Notes under the pieces: model-generated
What the model saw: the letters and a program-made list of their open reading frames with translations, nothing else
What the model was told of the DNA's origin: nothing
Databases searched by the model: none
Part shown: piece after piece, positions 53,940 through 56,629 of the stretch
Layout: every line of letters begins with the position of its first letter
Position numbering within the stretch: the first letter of the stretch is position 1
Position numbers and translations under genes: made by a program
Assembly (NCBI GenBank): GCA_963764625.1
Contig: CAVXTH010000009.1
Location: 352,001-416,000, forward strand
DNA: 64,000 bases
DNA from: Candidatus Krumholzibacteriota bacterium
GTDB taxonomy: Bacteria; Krumholzibacteriota; Krumholzibacteriia; JAJRXK01
Reading direction: 5' to 3'

Positions 53940-54168
53940 GGGTCCCTCGAGCGCCTCAGAGAATGAAACCGAATCGAGGGATCAAGACTAGGTTCAGCCG
54001 CGCGATTTCTCAAGTTCGCGCGTCCTCAGCCGCCCGGCGCGAGGGGCGGCGCCATGCCCGATGCGACCGTGAGACCCCGGTGGCCTGTCCGAATCCGGCG
54101 GCCAGTGCTAGATTCGAGAAGTTCGCCCGTTGGGGGCGATGCACCCGTTTCCTGGAGGTCCGCCGTCA

Positions 54169-55311
54169 ATGCGCTGCGTTTCTGCAATCGTTCTTCTACT
54201 CCTCGTGCCCCTTCTGAGCTCGGTGGCAGGCCTTAGCCTCGCGCAGGATGCCACGGATGAGGTGAAAGCTCCGAGCGCCAATTCGGTCGAGGAGGCCACG
54301 GCGCCAGATGGCATGTACGCGGTGTTTCATACGGATCTCGGGGTCATCGTCTGCAAACTCTTCTTCCAACGGGCCCCTCTGACCGTAGCGAATTTCGTGG
54401 GCCTCGCTGAAGGAACCCGAGAGACCATCGATCCCGTGACCAGGGAAACGGTGAAGAAGCCCTTTTACGACGGACTGCTCTTCCACCGGGTAGTGGGGGG
54501 TCTTTTGATCCAATGTGGCGATCCCACCGGGCATGGCACGGGGGGACCAGGCTACCGCTTTCGCGACGAATTCGATCCGGGCCTCCGTCACGATCGTCCC
54601 GGCGTACTCTCGATGGCCAACAGCGGGCCGAATACGAACGGCAGCCAGTTCTTCATCACCGAAACGAGGGTTCTGTCCTTCGACCGAAAGTACAGTGTCT
54701 TCGGGCGGGTCGTGCTGGGATTGGACGTCGTGTCCGCGATTTCTTCGGTTCCCACCGATCAAGAGCAACCCAAAGAGGATGTTCATCTGCGGACTCTCGA
54801 AATCGTGCGCCGGGGAAAGGAAGCGCAGAACTTCGATGCCGAGGCGGTCTTTGCGCACCTCAAGGATCTCGATGCGGCCCAACTTGCGCAGCTGCATTCC
54901 AAGCAATTTCACCAGAAAGTCGATCCGCTGCGCAAGAGGGCTCGCGAGCAGGAGGATGGCAGCCGGGTGGTCAAGACGCGTAAAGGAAGTGGGCTCCAAC
55001 CGCACGAAGGGGAGTCGATCGTCACGAACTACGTCTGCTACTTGCCCGATGGAAGTCAGGTGGAATCGACCTACCGGGATGAAACTCCGAAGGTCCTCGT
55101 CGCGGGCAGGCCGCGCAGGGGACTCGATTGGGAGCGGAACTTCCTGGACATGAAAGTGGGAGAAGAGCGCTGGGTGTTCTTGCCCGCGAAGCTCGCGTTC
55201 GGTAACCGTGGAATTCCGGGGGTCGTTCCCCCGGGCACTCCCCTCATTTTCCAACTCGAACTGGTCTCGATCGGAAGTGATGTCCCTCCGAGTGATCCGC
55301 AAGCCGAGTGA
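54169..55311 (+). CDS. Secreted peptidyl-prolyl isomerase, cyclophilin-FKBP fusion
   Basis: 'APLTVANFVGLAEG', 'FYDGLLFHRV', 'MANSGPNTNGSQFFIT'; FKBP 'MKVGE...PAKLAFG.RG..VPP...LIFQLEL'. Confidence 0.92.
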   Translation: MRCVSAIVLLLLVPLLSSVAGLSLAQDATDEVKAPSANSVEEATAPDGMYAVFHTDLGVIVCKLFFQRAPLTVANFVGLAEGTRETIDPVTRETVKKPFYDGLLFHRVVGGLLIQCGDPTGHGTGGPGYRFRDEFDPGLRHDRPGVLSMANSGPNTNGSQFFITETRVLSFDRKYSVFGRVVLGLDVVSAISSVPTDQEQPKEDVHLRTLEIVRRGKEAQNFDAEAVFAHLKDLDAAQLAQLHSKQFHQKVDPLRKRAREQEDGSRVVKTRKGSGLQPHEGESIVTNYVCYLPDGSQVESTYRDETPKVLVAGRPRRGLDWERNFLDMKVGEERWVFLPAKLAFGNRGIPGVVPPGTPLIFQLELVSIGSDVPPSDPQAE

Positions 55312-55552
55312 GGCAGCCGCCCCGGAGGGAAGGAAATGTGTCCGGCACCCACGGCGATCTCGCAAAATCGCTTGCCCTCAGAGCTCAATTGAGTTATTTC
55401 CGGCACTTACAGAGCACGGGTCGCAATGGGACCCATCTCCATCACGGTGCCACGCACCAAGGGTGGGACTTCCCTCGGACTCGTTGTCGATCGTGAAGGA
55501 TCGGTGTGATGCCGGTACCTCGTTTGACAATCAAAACCCAAGGAGGCCCACT

Positions 55553-55816
55553 GTGGCCAAGAAGAAGACTGCCGCCAAGAGGAAGCCCGCCGCGAAGAAA
55601 ACCACGAGAAAGAAGGCTGCGGCCAAGAAGTCCGCCATGGAGATGCTGCTCGTGGGAAGCAAGACCAAGGTTGCGCTCAAGAAGTACGGGGTCAACGTAG
55701 CTGGAGACGCCCTGGATGGTCTCAACGGTGTGCTCTACTGGTACGTCGAGCAGGCTGCCAAGCGCGCCAAGGCGAATGGCCGCAAGACGGTGCGTGCCCA
55801 CGATTTCACGGTGTGA
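55553..55816 (+). CDS. Bacterial histone-fold protein with Lys/Ala-rich N-terminal tail (87 aa)
   Basis: AAGGAGG RBS plus GTG. Core 'LLVGSKTKVALKKYGVNVAGDALDGL...AAKRAKANGRKTVRAHDF' matches the prokaryotic histone pattern (RKTVxxxD). Confidence 0.88.
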   Translation: MAKKKTAAKRKPAAKKTTRKKAAAKKSAMEMLLVGSKTKVALKKYGVNVAGDALDGLNGVLYWYVEQAAKRAKANGRKTVRAHDFTV

Positions 55817-55890
55817 TGTAGAAAGCCCCAAGCTTGTTCGCCGCGACGCGAGCGCCTTCCCCTTGGCACATCCCGTCGCAGCGAAACACA

Positions 55891-55918
55891 AGAGGCCGTT
55901 CCTGAGGGAGCGGCCTCT
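55891..55918. terminator. Stem-loop between the convergent histone and membrane-protein genes
   Basis: AGAGGCCGTTCC-TGAG-GGAGCGGCCTCT, 12-bp stem with one G-U pair. Confidence 0.65.
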
Positions 55919-55942
55919 GCGCTTATGGAATCATCGCGGTCC

Positions 55943-56629
55943 TCACTTCAGGAGTCCCGCTTCGCTGAATTGCGGCAACCCTCCGTGCATTAAAAACCAG
56001 ATGAGGTAGAGCAAGAGCGCGAGCAGATACCCCGATGCGAAGAAGACGGACATCGCGTCCCGCTTGCGTCTTTTCCACTTCGCTCCAATCCATGTCACGA
56101 TCGATAGTGCGGCGAGAATTCCAAGCGCCGGCGTTTGCCCTTCCACCGTGACGGCGAAAAAGCTGAAACCGTAGGGCACTCCGCTCACGGCGCACGCGAA
56201 GGGTGAGACCCTCGCGTTCCCCACTGGTCCCCGCAGGAGGATGAGCGAGAGCGAGATGATCGCGCAGTGCCAGATGATGTGACTCAGATGTTCGTCCAGG
56301 AAGTAGTCGAGGCGCCACGCGGGAGTGGCCCCTTGGGGGTCGATGAGATGTCCCAGCGCGTTCGCGGCCAAATGAAGCGAGTGTCCTTCGATCCAGGCGG
56401 CCGAGAGAACCAGGAACAGAATCATCTTGGGCCAGCCCGGCCATCCGCCGTGACGGTGCCACAGGAGCAAAGCGTAGAGTGGCAAGAGTACGAGGGGGGT
56501 GAGGAGATCGAGGAGATCTCCCACGCGCAACAGACCCTCCGGCGGGGCGGAGTGCACCAAATACGCCGGGCTCAACAGGAAAAGAGTGAAGCTGATGGAG
56601 AACAGGATGAGACTGCTAGAGAGTTTCAC
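55943..56629 (-). CDS. Hypothetical multi-pass membrane protein with clustered His residues
   Basis: About seven TM segments; 'EGHSLHLAAN', 'DEHLSHIIWH'. Confidence 0.7.
   Translation of the reverse strand: MKLSSSLILFSISFTLFLLSPAYLVHSAPPEGLLRVGDLLDLLTPLVLLPLYALLLWHRHGGWPGWPKMILFLVLSAAWIEGHSLHLAANALGHLIDPQGATPAWRLDYFLDEHLSHIIWHCAIISLSLILLRGPVGNARVSPFACAVSGVPYGFSFFAVTVEGQTPALGILAALSIVTWIGAKWKRRKRDAMSVFFASGYLLALLLYLIWFLMHGGLPQFSEAGLLK

What the first reader, a model, noticed from the sequence alone, without database searches (positions are those of the whole stretch)
55553..55816. Bacterial histone with a eukaryote-like basic N-terminal tail
Seen: an 87-aa ORF hidden at the end of a longer spurious ORF, with a strong AAGGAGG RBS, a 240-bp upstream gap and a downstream hairpin, so it looks monocistronic. 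Residues 1-28 (MAKKKTAAKRKPAAKKTTRKKAAAKKSA) hold 11 Lys, 2 Arg and no acidic residue. Known: residues 29-87 follow the short bacterial histone fold of the Bdellovibrio Bd0055/face-to-face type (SKxK in alpha1, 'AKANGRKTV..HD' in L2-alpha3), and Bd0055 has no such tail. Inference: an abundant chromatin protein whose tail could be acetylated or methylated, or could bridge or condense DNA, in an uncultured bacterial lineage.
Basis: partly seen in the sequence, partly recalled or inferred. Interest (0 to 1): 0.85.

Follow-up and report, generated by a model that had tools for sequence, protein, structure and literature searches.

The report
Tailed face-to-face bacterial histone gene
This is a real gene for a small bacterial histone of the tetramer-forming "face-to-face" type that carries a lysine-rich floppy N-terminal tail, a combination already noted in the literature for many bacteria but never tested at the bench.

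Summary
Window 55553-55816 (+) is an 87-codon ORF with a GTG start (not ATG). AAGGAGG lies 6 nt upstream, the gap to the upstream gene is 241 nt, and a 12-bp hairpin lies 75 nt downstream. Residues 29-87 are an alpha3-truncated histone fold. The best solved relative is the Leptospira tetrameric face-to-face (FtF) histone HLp (E 2.9e-10, TM 0.96), ahead of Bdellovibrio HBb/Bd0055 (E 2.3e-4). All five FtF signature residues and the five main HLp DNA-binding residues are present. A four-copy model reproduces the HLp tetramer interface.

Residues 1-28 (11 K, 2 R, no acidic residue) are predicted disordered. The tail is very probably translated: in 27 of 33 long-tailed relatives a strong Shine-Dalgarno site sits before the MAKK start.

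Among the best 80 of 447 species genomes with a relative, 33 carry long Lys-rich tails. Schwab et al. 2024 already state that most bacterial FtF histones have positively charged tails, so this is a new member of a known kind, in a Krumholzibacteriota-labelled lineage.

Abundance, tail modification and DNA condensation remain untested. Side findings are a tail-less paralogue, tail growth by 18-nt repeats, and a conserved 5' leader.

The parts
55365..55552 (+). Conserved non-coding 5' leader, probably promoter plus 5' UTR, upstream of the histone gene
   Evidence: It aligns in 5 distinct genomes with fixed 121-123 nt spacing between two anchor blocks. Over the aligned part from 55414, divergence is 7-23%, against 30-35% at third codon positions of the core. 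Single-base indels show it is not coding. Contigs from RNA libraries of four runs cover it together with the CDS start. The proposed secondary structure is not statistically supported.
55540..55546 (+). Shine-Dalgarno site AAGGAGG, 6 nt before the GTG start
   Evidence: The same motif at the same spacing occurs in L003, L004, L005 and L008.
55553..55816 (+). Histone gene: 87 codons plus TGA, GTG start
55553..55636 (+). Lysine-rich N-terminal tail, residues 1-28 (11 K, 2 R, 9 A, 3 T, no D/E; net +13; pI 12)
   Evidence: One search gives the composition. pLDDT is 45-64, with no secondary structure. 116 of the 120 listed homologues have such a tail (that ranking is biased by the tail in the query).
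55556..55599 (+). Imperfect 18-nt (6-codon) tandem repeat inside the tail-coding part
   Evidence: TRF finds 2.4 copies with 80% matches. Relative L087 has a further 18-nt repeat (2.3 copies, 95% matches), which accounts for its 8-residue-longer tail.
55637..55813 (+). Histone-fold core, residues 29-87: alpha1 35-43, alpha2 51-74, one-turn alpha3 82-84
   Evidence: AF2 pLDDT is 88-96. Foldseek: HLp 9qt1_A TM 0.96, rmsd 0.7 A, 46% identity; HBb TM 0.87-0.91; HTkC TM 0.89. phmmer: HLp E 2.9e-10.
55891..55918 (+). 12-pair hairpin between the histone gene and the convergent downstream gene (which ends at 55943)
   Evidence: It has no U-tract and is not called as an intrinsic terminator.

Best explanation
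The gene encodes a small nucleoid protein with two parts.

The core (residues 29-87) is an alpha3-truncated histone fold of the face-to-face (FtF) class. By analogy with Leptospira HLp, it should form a handshake dimer, and two dimers should then close into a torus-shaped tetramer. The contacts would use the C-terminal end of alpha2, loop L2 and the short alpha3 (R71, N75, R77, D84, F85). The tetramer should bind DNA without sequence preference around its rim (S36, K37, K39, K43, R81), wrapping roughly 60 bp.

The tail (residues 1-28) is a disordered run of about 13 positive charges. It leaves the fold just N-terminal of alpha1, next to the S36/K37 DNA contact. A tetramer would therefore carry four tails and about +52 of extra charge.

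The most likely role of the tail is electrostatic: raising affinity, neutralising wrapped or neighbouring DNA, and promoting bridging or condensation. Tail length changes in evolution by in-frame 18-nt repeat gain and loss.

Shown here: the gene, the fold, the family signature, the predicted tetramer interface, the predicted disorder, and the start-site evidence. Inferred: DNA wrapping, the tail's role, and any regulation.
For: Fold and family:
- phmmer against PDB gives HLp (9qt0) E 2.9e-10, HBb (8cmp/8fvx) about 2.5e-4 and HTkC (9f2c) 7e-3.
- The AF2 core has pLDDT 88-96.
- The top Foldseek hits are HLp (TM 0.95-0.96, rmsd 0.7-0.8 A), then HBb, then HTkC.

FtF signature:
- The FtF logo positions R48, N52, R54, T56 and D61 (PMC11390915 section 7) correspond to R71, N75, R77, T79 and D84.
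- HLp tetramer residues R49, N53, R55, D62 and F63 (PMC12701072 section 7) correspond to R71, N75, R77, D84 and F85 in the ungapped alignment.
- The five residues that give 52% of HLp's DNA-binding energy (R59, K21, K15, S14, K17; PMC12701072 section 10) are all kept, as R81, K43, K37, S36 and K39.

Tetramer model (four copies of residues 29-87):
- Score 0.93, against 0.01 for the best of 3 controls.
- That mark was reached by 20 of 30 proteins solved as pairs and 1 of 23 solved as single chains. The counts hold only roughly here, because four copies and my own alignment were used.
- The runs agree in at least 98% of contacts, and the partner's pLDDT is at least 95.
- The scored copy touches its dimer mate. 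It also touches a second copy through residues 67, 70-71, 74-75, 81, 83-84 and 86-87, which is the HLp tetramer surface.
- Similar complexes are already solved, so the pass may be memory: it shows likeness, not binding.

Tail is translated:
- AAGGAGG lies 6 nt before the GTG.
- Among 33 long-tailed relatives, a 5-nt or longer SD match precedes the tail start in 27, a 4-nt match in 4, and none in 2. An internal Met has such a match in 1 (L025 was removed by eye as a mis-called start).
- 117 of the 120 listed homologues begin with an MAKK-type N-terminus.
- Tail indels are in frame.

RNA-library contigs: one contig from each of four runs (four studies) spans the leader, the start codon and the tail. 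They cover 55447-55664, 55420-55600, 55436-55654 and 55352-55813.
Against: - There is no protein-level evidence for this gene or its tail.
- RNA-library contigs may contain DNA, and they cannot show transcript ends or expression levels.
- Two HLp interface positions differ: S52 corresponds to A74 and T61 to H83.
- The protein has K78 (an RKT motif). Schwab et al. describe that as typical of nucleosomal and bacterial-dimer histones rather than FtF.
- The structure and complex predictions could be recalled from HLp/HTkC entries.
- The genome also encodes three HU/IHF-family proteins and a second histone, so this protein need not be the main nucleoid organiser.
- Hu et al. 2025 concluded that the annotated N-terminal extension of Leptospira HLp is not translated, so predicted 'tails' on bacterial histones can be annotation artefacts.
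Confidence: 0.8

Rival explanations
1. Translation starts at Met29 or Met31. The Lys-rich stretch would then be an untranslated, purine-rich leader that happens to stay open.
For: ATG codons exist at residues 29 and 31. Hu et al. argued exactly this for the annotated long form of Leptospira HLp (PMC12701072 section 7). In one search the genus-level relatives L003 and L005 show a 4-nt AAGG 5 nt before their internal ATG. Nine of the 34 loci the script classed as long-tailed, which include the later-reclassified L025, have a 4-nt match before an internal start.
Against: In the window no SD match precedes either internal ATG, while a 7-nt AAGGAGG precedes the GTG. The strong SD lies before the tail start in 27 of 33 long-tailed relatives, against 1 with a 5-nt or longer match before an internal start. 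The frame stays open and Lys-rich, with only in-frame indels, across phyla. The MAKK N-terminus is shared even by short-tailed relatives.
Confidence: 0.05
2. It works like Bdellovibrio HBb/Bd0055: a dimer that bends or coats DNA without forming a wrapping tetramer.
For: HBb is a significant sequence and fold match (E 2.3e-4, TM 0.87-0.91). The RKT motif with K78 is shared with bacterial dimers. Two HLp interface residues are substituted.
Against: The match to HLp is much closer (E 2.9e-10, 46% against 35-36% identity). The R and N that bacterial dimers lack are present. A dimer-of-dimers interface at the HLp surface is predicted with low expected error (it may be memory).
Confidence: 0.1
3. 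The tail is mainly a regulated signalling platform, with reversible Lys acetylation or methylation as on eukaryotic histone tails, rather than a constitutive polycation.
For: The tail has 11 lysines. The genome holds three Hist_deacetyl-family genes and two near-identical SET-domain genes. SET matched only 1 of 14 control genomes.
Against: SET was found in 0 of the 6 other family-f1 genomes, 5 of which carry the tailed histone. It was found in 13 of the 74 genomes of other families, so it does not co-occur with the tail. The deacetylase family is common: 9 of 14 controls. No SIR2 was found, in a genome that is 96% complete. There is no conserved tail motif that a reader or writer could recognise beyond the MAKK start. 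No modifier gene lies next to the histone.
Confidence: 0.1
4. It is not a DNA-packaging protein at all. It would be a small basic RNA-binding or ribosome-associated protein that reuses a histone fold.
For: Lys/Ala-rich tails also occur on ribosomal and RNA-binding proteins (general knowledge, not tested here). No functional data exist for this clade.
Against: All five main DNA-contact residues of HLp are conserved. HLp and HBb both bind DNA experimentally (abstract of PMC12701072). The gene is not in a ribosomal or translation operon.
Confidence: 0.03

Closest known systems
HLp, the tetrameric face-to-face histone of Leptospira perolatii (PDB 9QT0/9QT1/9QT2; Hu et al. 2025, PMC12701072)
   Same: Same alpha3-truncated histone fold (TM 0.96, 46% identity). 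The tetramer residues R49, N53, R55, D62 and F63 and the DNA-binding residues S14, K15, K17, K21 and R59 are all conserved. The predicted tetramer uses the same surface.
   Different: HLp's authentic form is 63 residues with a short, non-basic, disordered N-terminus. The window's protein adds a tail of about 28 residues and +13 charge. S52 corresponds to A74, T61 to H83 and K54 to G76. Leptospira lacks HU, whereas this genome has three HU/IHF genes.
Bacterial FtF histones with positively charged tails, as catalogued by Schwab et al. 2024 (PMC11390915)
   Same: This is the class the protein belongs to. [quoted passage not shown]
   Different: The paper lists Spirochaetota, Planctomycetota, Bdellovibrionota and Myxococcota as the main phyla. 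Here the gene is in a Krumholzibacteriota-labelled lineage. Close relatives also carry record titles naming Acidobacteriota, Elusimicrobiota and Nitrospirota. The figures that show the tails are supplementary (Figs 13, 19, 20) and I could not see them.
HBb / Bd0055, the 'bacterial dimer' histone of Bdellovibrio bacteriovorus (PDB 8CMP, 8FVX, 9EZZ)
   Same: Short alpha3-truncated fold, the S-K motif in alpha1, RKT in L2 and the RD clamp.
   Different: HBb lacks the R and N of the FtF dimer-dimer interface and is a dimer. It has no basic tail. Similarity is lower: E 2.3e-4, 35-36% identity.
HTkC, the archaeal FtF histone of Thermococcus kodakarensis (PDB 9F2C)
   Same: Same fold and torus tetramer class (TM 0.89). 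It is the best solved match for the window genome's second, tail-less histone (E 1.6e-6).
   Different: It is archaeal and has no tail. Archaeal FtF histones generally lack tails.
Eukaryotic core-histone tails and Asgard histone tails
   Same: N-terminal, disordered and rich in lysine.
   Different: No H3/H4-type sequence motif is present. The composition is K/A/T/P with short repeats. Length varies from 14 to 41 residues among relatives and changes by 18-nt repeats. No modification is known.

Membership tests
Face-to-face (FtF) alpha3 histones | Histone fold with shortened alpha2 and one-turn alpha3 | tested here: met
   The AF2 model has helices 35-43, 51-74 and 82-84, with core pLDDT 88-96. 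Foldseek gives TM 0.95-0.96 to HLp and 0.89 to HTkC.
Face-to-face (FtF) alpha3 histones | Conserved C-terminal residues at FtF HMM-logo positions 48, 52, 54, 56 and 61 (R, N, R, T, D) | tested here: met
   R71, N75, R77, T79 and D84 have the same spacing of +4, +2, +2, +5 (definition read in PMC11390915 section 7). They align to HLp R49, N53, R55 and D62.
Face-to-face (FtF) alpha3 histones | Torus-shaped homotetramer formed by two dimers through alpha2 C-terminus, L2 and alpha3 (the class is defined by this predicted tetramer) | tested here: met
   The four-copy model scores 0.93, against 0.01 for the best of 3 controls. That mark was reached by 20 of 30 solved pairs and 1 of 23 single chains (rough here). 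Contact agreement is at least 98% and partner pLDDT at least 95. The second interface uses residues 67, 70-71, 74-75, 81, 83-84 and 86-87. This is a prediction only and may be memory of HLp/HTkC.
Face-to-face (FtF) alpha3 histones | Non-specific DNA binding and wrapping of about 50-60 bp | not testable with these tools
   Only the conservation of HLp's DNA-contact residues could be checked.
Bacterial dimer histones (HBb/Bd0055 type) | Absence of the FtF interface residues R48 and N52, and no confident oligomer beyond the dimer | tested here: not met
   R71 and N75 are present. A dimer-dimer interface is predicted. HBb is the weaker match.
Pfam DUF1931 (PF09123) | Score at or above the family's gathering cut-off | tested here: not met
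   There is no DUF1931 hit for this protein even at E <= 10. The paralogue scores 21.6 bits against a cut-off of 21.8. NCBI and PDB nevertheless label relatives 'DUF1931 domain-containing protein'.
Nucleosomal histones (archaeal HMf type / eukaryotic; NCBIfam NF043032) | Profile match above cut-off and a full-length alpha3 used for a four-helix-bundle tetramer | tested here: not met
   NF043032 scores 15.5 bits against a cut-off of 50. No Pfam histone family was listed. TM to HMfA and nucleosome chains is 0.4-0.6.
Eukaryote-type histone tails | Disordered basic N-terminal extension | tested here: met
   pLDDT is 45-64 with no secondary structure. Net charge is +13 over 28 residues.
Eukaryote-type histone tails | Regulated post-translational modification by dedicated writers, erasers and readers | not testable with these tools
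   Only gene co-occurrence could be checked. SET does not co-occur with the tailed histone.

The most novel reading that the evidence does not exclude
One family of a Krumholzibacteriota-labelled lineage may run a two-histone chromatin system.

A tail-less FtF histone is shared with most of the phylum. A second, tailed FtF histone is nearly identical to those of unrelated phyla and so was perhaps acquired by transfer. The two could mix in tetramers carrying 0 to 4 polycationic tails, which would give graded DNA compaction in the way a core histone fused to a built-in linker-histone-like tail might.

Tail length would be tuned by 18-nt repeat gain and loss. Synthesis of the tailed histone would be held in check by a conserved 5' leader that can pair with its own Shine-Dalgarno site (autogenous translational control).
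Probability: 0.12. Interest if true: 0.6.

Novelty: new member of a known kind. Interest (0 to 1): 0.35.

Why it matters
Bacterial histones became an experimental topic only in 2023-2025. The two solved examples, HBb and HLp, both lack a basic tail. Two of the papers read here still state that bacterial or prokaryotic histones mostly or generally lack long N-terminal tails.

This locus is a clean, well-supported example of the tailed form:
- Its start site is backed by a strong ribosome-binding site.
- It has a tail-less paralogue in the same genome.
- It has close tail-less and short-tailed relatives elsewhere.

That makes a natural comparison set for asking what a polycationic tail adds to a histone tetramer in a cell without a nucleus. 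It does not overturn anything, because the existence of such tails is already in print.

Tried and rejected
Family libraries. Pfam gave only sub-threshold tail-driven hits: DUF3175 E 0.083 and DUF6465 E 2. NCBIfam gave nothing above cut-off. The ESM Atlas returned only 'hypothetical protein' clusters without Pfam families.

Promoter and terminator scans. The region 55200-56100 gave 0 sigma-70-like sites. It gave one terminator-like site on the minus strand at 56060-56048, which is unrelated to this gene.

Rfam on 55250-56000. The only row is a sub-threshold b55 match: 22.2 bits against a gathering score of 70, E 0.29.

Leader RNA structure.
- RNAalifold proposes a fold that pairs about 55464-55473 with the SD.
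- The single-sequence fold has z = -1.23, and 26 of 200 shuffles fold as well.
- Covariation is no better than shuffles, at 120 of 500.
- nhmmer over all 191 loci held found only the five distinct genomes already known: 8 locus rows, of which L001 is the window's own stretch, L086 and L087 repeat L003 and L004, and L121 scores the same as L005.
- I therefore claim the conservation, not the structure.

Metagenome scan for more close relatives. It returned 71 loci, of which only one (L121) is close.

Modifier co-occurrence.
- SET is in the window's genome (two copies 2.9 kb apart).
- It is in 0 of the 6 other f1 genomes, so I dropped it as a dedicated tail methyltransferase.
- SIR2 was not found, in a genome that is 96% complete.
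- Hist_deacetyl has 3 genes but is a common family.

Tree of 89 core sequences. It uses 57 columns, and 47 of 79 inner branches are unresolved. It shows only that tail classes cluster (12 changes for 'long' against 26.4 in shuffles, 0 of 500 as low) and that phyla are intermixed. I make no claim about donor, direction or number of gains.

Read laying. Bins 55200-55334 and 55902-56000 had no cover in the four runs. That proves nothing about transcript ends. Depths cannot rank expression, so 'abundant' remains untested.

Schwab et al.'s Supplementary Figs 13, 19 and 20, which show the bacterial tails, may already contain close relatives of this protein.

In-print check. My statement that the tails have not been studied experimentally rests on two searches and on the passages read. 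Subscription journals, for example the 2025 TIBS review cited, were not searchable.
Full report
WHAT IS THERE

Window 55553-55816 (+) is an 87-codon ORF ending in TGA. The first codon is GTG. AAGGAGG lies at 55540-55546, 6 nt upstream.

The ORF is the tail end of a mechanical 202-aa ORF that starts at 55208. The upstream part of that longer frame is not coding:
- The alignment to relatives L004 and L008 needs two separate single-base indels in it.
- Its substitutions show no clear third-position excess: 6 of 14, 5 of 10, 14 of 30 and 15 of 32.
- In the histone core the figures are 17 of 25, 17 of 25, 18 of 30 and 20 of 36.

Neighbouring genes:
- The upstream same-strand gene (54130-55311) is a cyclophilin-FKBP prolyl isomerase, 241 nt away.
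- The downstream gene (55943-56629, minus strand) is a convergent membrane protein.
- An S49 peptidase gene follows.

A 12-pair hairpin lies at 55891-55918. The region's fold has z = -3.47, and 0 of 200 shuffles fold as well. It has no U-run and is not called as a terminator.

THE CORE IS A FACE-TO-FACE HISTONE

Sequence and fold matches:
- phmmer against all PDB chains lists 7 sequences at E <= 10.
- The best is Leptospira perolatii HLp (9qt0, E 2.9e-10, query 24-85, no gaps).
- Next come Bdellovibrio HBb/Bd0055 (8cmp 2.3e-4, 8fvx 2.6e-4) and the archaeal FtF histone HTkC (9f2c, 7.1e-3).
- An AlphaFold2 model built on 29 relatives has pLDDT 88-96 over residues 31-87, with helices 35-43, 51-74 and 82-84.
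- Foldseek ranks HLp first (TM 0.95-0.96 on the target, rmsd 0.7-0.8 A, 46% identity), then HBb (0.87-0.91, 35-36%), then HTkC (0.88-0.89).
- Nucleosomal histones come far behind, at TM 0.4-0.6.

Signature residues:
- Schwab et al. 2024 define FtF histones by their predicted torus tetramer and by conserved logo positions R48, N52, R54, T56 and D61. They say bacterial-dimer histones lack R48 and N52 (PMC11390915, section 7 and passages).
- The window's protein has R71, N75, R77, T79 and D84 at exactly that spacing.
- In the HLp crystal structure the tetramer is held by R49, S52 and N53 against F63, T61 and R55 (PMC12701072 section 7).
- In the ungapped alignment these positions are R71, A74, N75, F85, H83 and R77, so four of the six are identical.
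- The five residues that supply 52% of HLp's DNA-binding energy (R59, K21, K15, S14, K17) are all kept, as R81, K43, K37, S36 and K39.

Tetramer model (four copies of residues 29-87):
- Score 0.93, against 0.01 for the best of three controls.
- That mark was reached by 20 of 30 proteins solved as pairs and 1 of 23 solved as single chains. The counts hold only roughly here, because four copies and my own alignment were used.
- The runs agree in at least 98% of contacts, and the partner's pLDDT is at least 95.
- The scored copy touches its dimer mate. It also touches a second copy through residues 67, 70-71, 74-75, 81, 83-84 and 86-87, which is the HLp tetramer surface.
- HLp and HTkC tetramers are solved, so this pass may be memory: it shows likeness, not binding.

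The core therefore belongs with HLp/HTkC, not with Bd0055.

THE TAIL IS REAL AND VERY PROBABLY TRANSLATED

Residues 1-28 hold 11 K, 2 R, 9 A, 3 T, 1 P, 1 S and the initiator Met, with no acidic residue. The net charge is +13, against +5 for the core. The tail is modelled without structure, with pLDDT 45-64.

Start-site evidence:
- In the window, the only SD match before any in-frame start is the 7-nt one before the GTG. No match precedes Met29 or Met31.
- I examined the 80 best of the 447 species genomes that encode a relative.
- A script classed 34 of them as long-tailed: 14 aa or more before the conserved core, with at least 5 K or R. One (L025) is a mis-called start, which I reclassified by eye, leaving 33.
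- The remaining loci are 28 short basic tails (MAKKME-type, under 14 aa), 18 short non-basic and 1 other (L016).
- Among the 33, a 5-nt or longer match to AAGGAGGT lies 3-12 nt before the tail start in 27, a 4-nt match in 4, and none in 2 (L018, L058).
- A 5-nt or longer match precedes an internal start in 1 (L064).
- Tails run from 14 to 41 residues.

Wider protein search:
- Of the 120 listed proteins out of 1913 hits, 116 have such a tail and 117 begin with an MAKK-type N-terminus.
- That ranking is biased, because the query itself carried the tail.

How tail length changes:
- The tail-coding DNA is an imperfect 18-nt repeat (55556-55599, 2.4 copies).
- A same-genus relative has a further 18-nt repeat (2.3 copies, 95% matches), which makes its tail 8 residues longer.
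- Tail length therefore changes by in-frame repeat gain and loss.

Substitution pattern and RNA libraries:
- Third-position bias in the tail is intermediate: 5 of 11, 7 of 14, 8 of 18 and 10 of 24. This fits a composition-constrained, fast-evolving coding region.
- One contig from each of four metatranscriptome-labelled runs (four studies) spans the leader, the start codon and the tail. They cover 55447-55664 (4 differences), 55420-55600 (3), 55436-55654 (6) and 55352-55813 (33).
- Such libraries can hold DNA, so this is weak support for expression.

WHERE IT SITS IN BIOLOGY

Lineage:
- The window's genome is 3.57 Mb in 9 contigs and 96% complete.
- Locus L003 comes from a record titled Candidatus Krumholzibacteriota bacterium. 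It has the same tail and core sequences as L086 and the same leader score. L086 was cut from G052, which genome-search runs the same genus as the window.
- The lineage therefore carries that label.

Distribution in the phylum (81 genomes sampled):
- 48 have a match at E <= 0.001.
- Matches at E <= 1e-28 occur only in the window's own family f1, in 5 of its 6 other genomes.
- The remaining matches (E 3e-9 to 1e-3) are to a different, tail-less histone of about 53-56 aa.

The second histone:
- The window's genome has that gene too (G000:C6; L002 1504-1674; 56 aa, with AGGAGG 9 nt upstream).
- Its best solved match is HTkC (E 1.6e-6).
- Family f1 therefore has two FtF-type histones, one tailed and one not.

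Spread across phyla:
- The tailed type is 70-89% identical in its core to genes in records titled Planctomycetota, Acidobacteriota, Elusimicrobiota, Bdellovibrionota, Myxococcota and Nitrospirota.
- Phyla are intermixed in a poorly resolved tree.
- Long tails by phylum label among the 80:
  - Krumholzibacteriota: 5 of 5
  - Planctomycetota: 9 of 18
  - Acidobacteriota: 7 of 14
  - Bdellovibrionota: 3 of 10
  - Myxococcota: 2 of 6
  - Nitrospirota: 2 of 2
  - Pseudomonadota: 1 of 2
  - Elusimicrobiota: 0 of 17
  - Unnamed records: 4 of 6
- This pattern is compatible with horizontal spread or with extreme conservation plus loss. I did not test which.

Other nucleoid proteins: the genome also has three HU/IHF-family genes over the Pfam cut-off, unlike Leptospira.

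HOW IT MOST LIKELY WORKS

Inferred from HLp (abstract and sections 7, 9 and 10 of PMC12701072): handshake dimers close into a tetramer that binds DNA non-specifically and wraps about 60 bp, with a bridging mode also possible.

Each tail leaves the fold a few residues before S36/K37, the 'paired ends of helices' DNA contact. Four tails would add about +52 charge at the rim. The simplest role is electrostatic: higher affinity, neutralisation of wrapped or neighbouring duplexes, and bridging or condensation.

A regulatory, modification-based role is possible but has no support here:
- SET-domain genes are present in this genome (two near-identical copies 2.9 kb apart).
- They occur in 0 of the 6 other f1 genomes and in 13 of the 74 genomes of other families.
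- Deacetylase-family genes are common everywhere.
- SIR2 was not found.

WHAT IS KNOWN

- Schwab et al. [quoted passage not shown] The figures are supplementary and could not be seen.
- Hocher et al. 2023 say that most bacterial singlets lack long tails. Hu et al. [quoted passage not shown]
- Hu et al. also argue that the annotated extension of Leptospira HLp is not translated. This is why the SD check above matters.
- Two literature searches found no experimental study of a bacterial histone tail.
- JGI already names several relatives 'histone H3/H4', and NCBI names some 'DUF1931 domain-containing protein'. Pfam and NCBIfam models do not reach their cut-offs on this protein.

VERDICT

This is a new member of a known kind, of moderate interest as a clean experimental entry point to bacterial histone tails.

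Noticed in passing
window 55365-55552 (+): About 190 nt upstream of the histone gene are conserved in five distinct genomes (window, L003, L005, L004, L008), with fixed spacing of blocks. Over the aligned part from 55414, divergence is 7-23%, against 30-35% at third codon positions of the core. The 3' UTR does not align. RNAalifold pairs about 55464-55473 with the Shine-Dalgarno site, but neither the shuffle z-score (-1.23) nor covariation (120 of 500 shuffles as high) supports the fold. It could be a promoter plus a regulatory leader.
   Followed up: partly
G000:C6, locus L002 1504-1674 (+): A second, tail-less 56-aa histone gene lies in the same genome, with AGGAGG 9 nt upstream and HTkC as its best solved match (E 1.6e-6). 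This paralogue type accounts for the weaker histone matches outside family f1 in the sampled phylum. The tailed type is confined to family f1.
   Followed up: partly
proteins P0006 and P0122-P0270: By my count, 29 of the 150 listed cluster representatives match the query in two stretches and are about 117-150 aa long. They are doublet (pseudodimer) versions of this same histone type, mostly without a basic tail (for example P0006, 122 aa).
   Followed up: no
G000:C2:70553-70840 and 73454-73741 (locus L120 4386-4973 and 7287-8144, minus strand): Two near-identical SET-domain genes lie 2.9 kb apart, within a 300-nt exact direct repeat. SET matched only 1 of 14 control genomes and 14 of 81 genomes of the phylum, none of them among the 6 other genomes of the window's own family.
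   Followed up: partly
window 55556-55599; L087 1482-1550: The tail-coding DNA is built from 18-nt (6-codon) tandem repeats. A same-genus relative carries an extra, 95%-matching pair of units that lengthens its tail by 8 residues.
   Followed up: yes
window 55555-55640, runs X1-X4: Short RNA-library contigs from other organisms match only the Lys-codon repeat. One has depth 56 and matches it twice within a single 117-nt contig. One loose end shows an AAGGAGG and an ATG directly before a core. Related tailed and tail-less histone messages therefore seem to be present in salt-marsh and sediment RNA libraries.
   Followed up: no
window 54130-55311 (+): The upstream gene is a fusion of a cyclophilin-type and an FKBP-type prolyl isomerase domain (Pfam E 6.9e-41 and 2.3e-13), preceded by what looks by eye like a signal-peptide-like N-terminus.
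   Followed up: no
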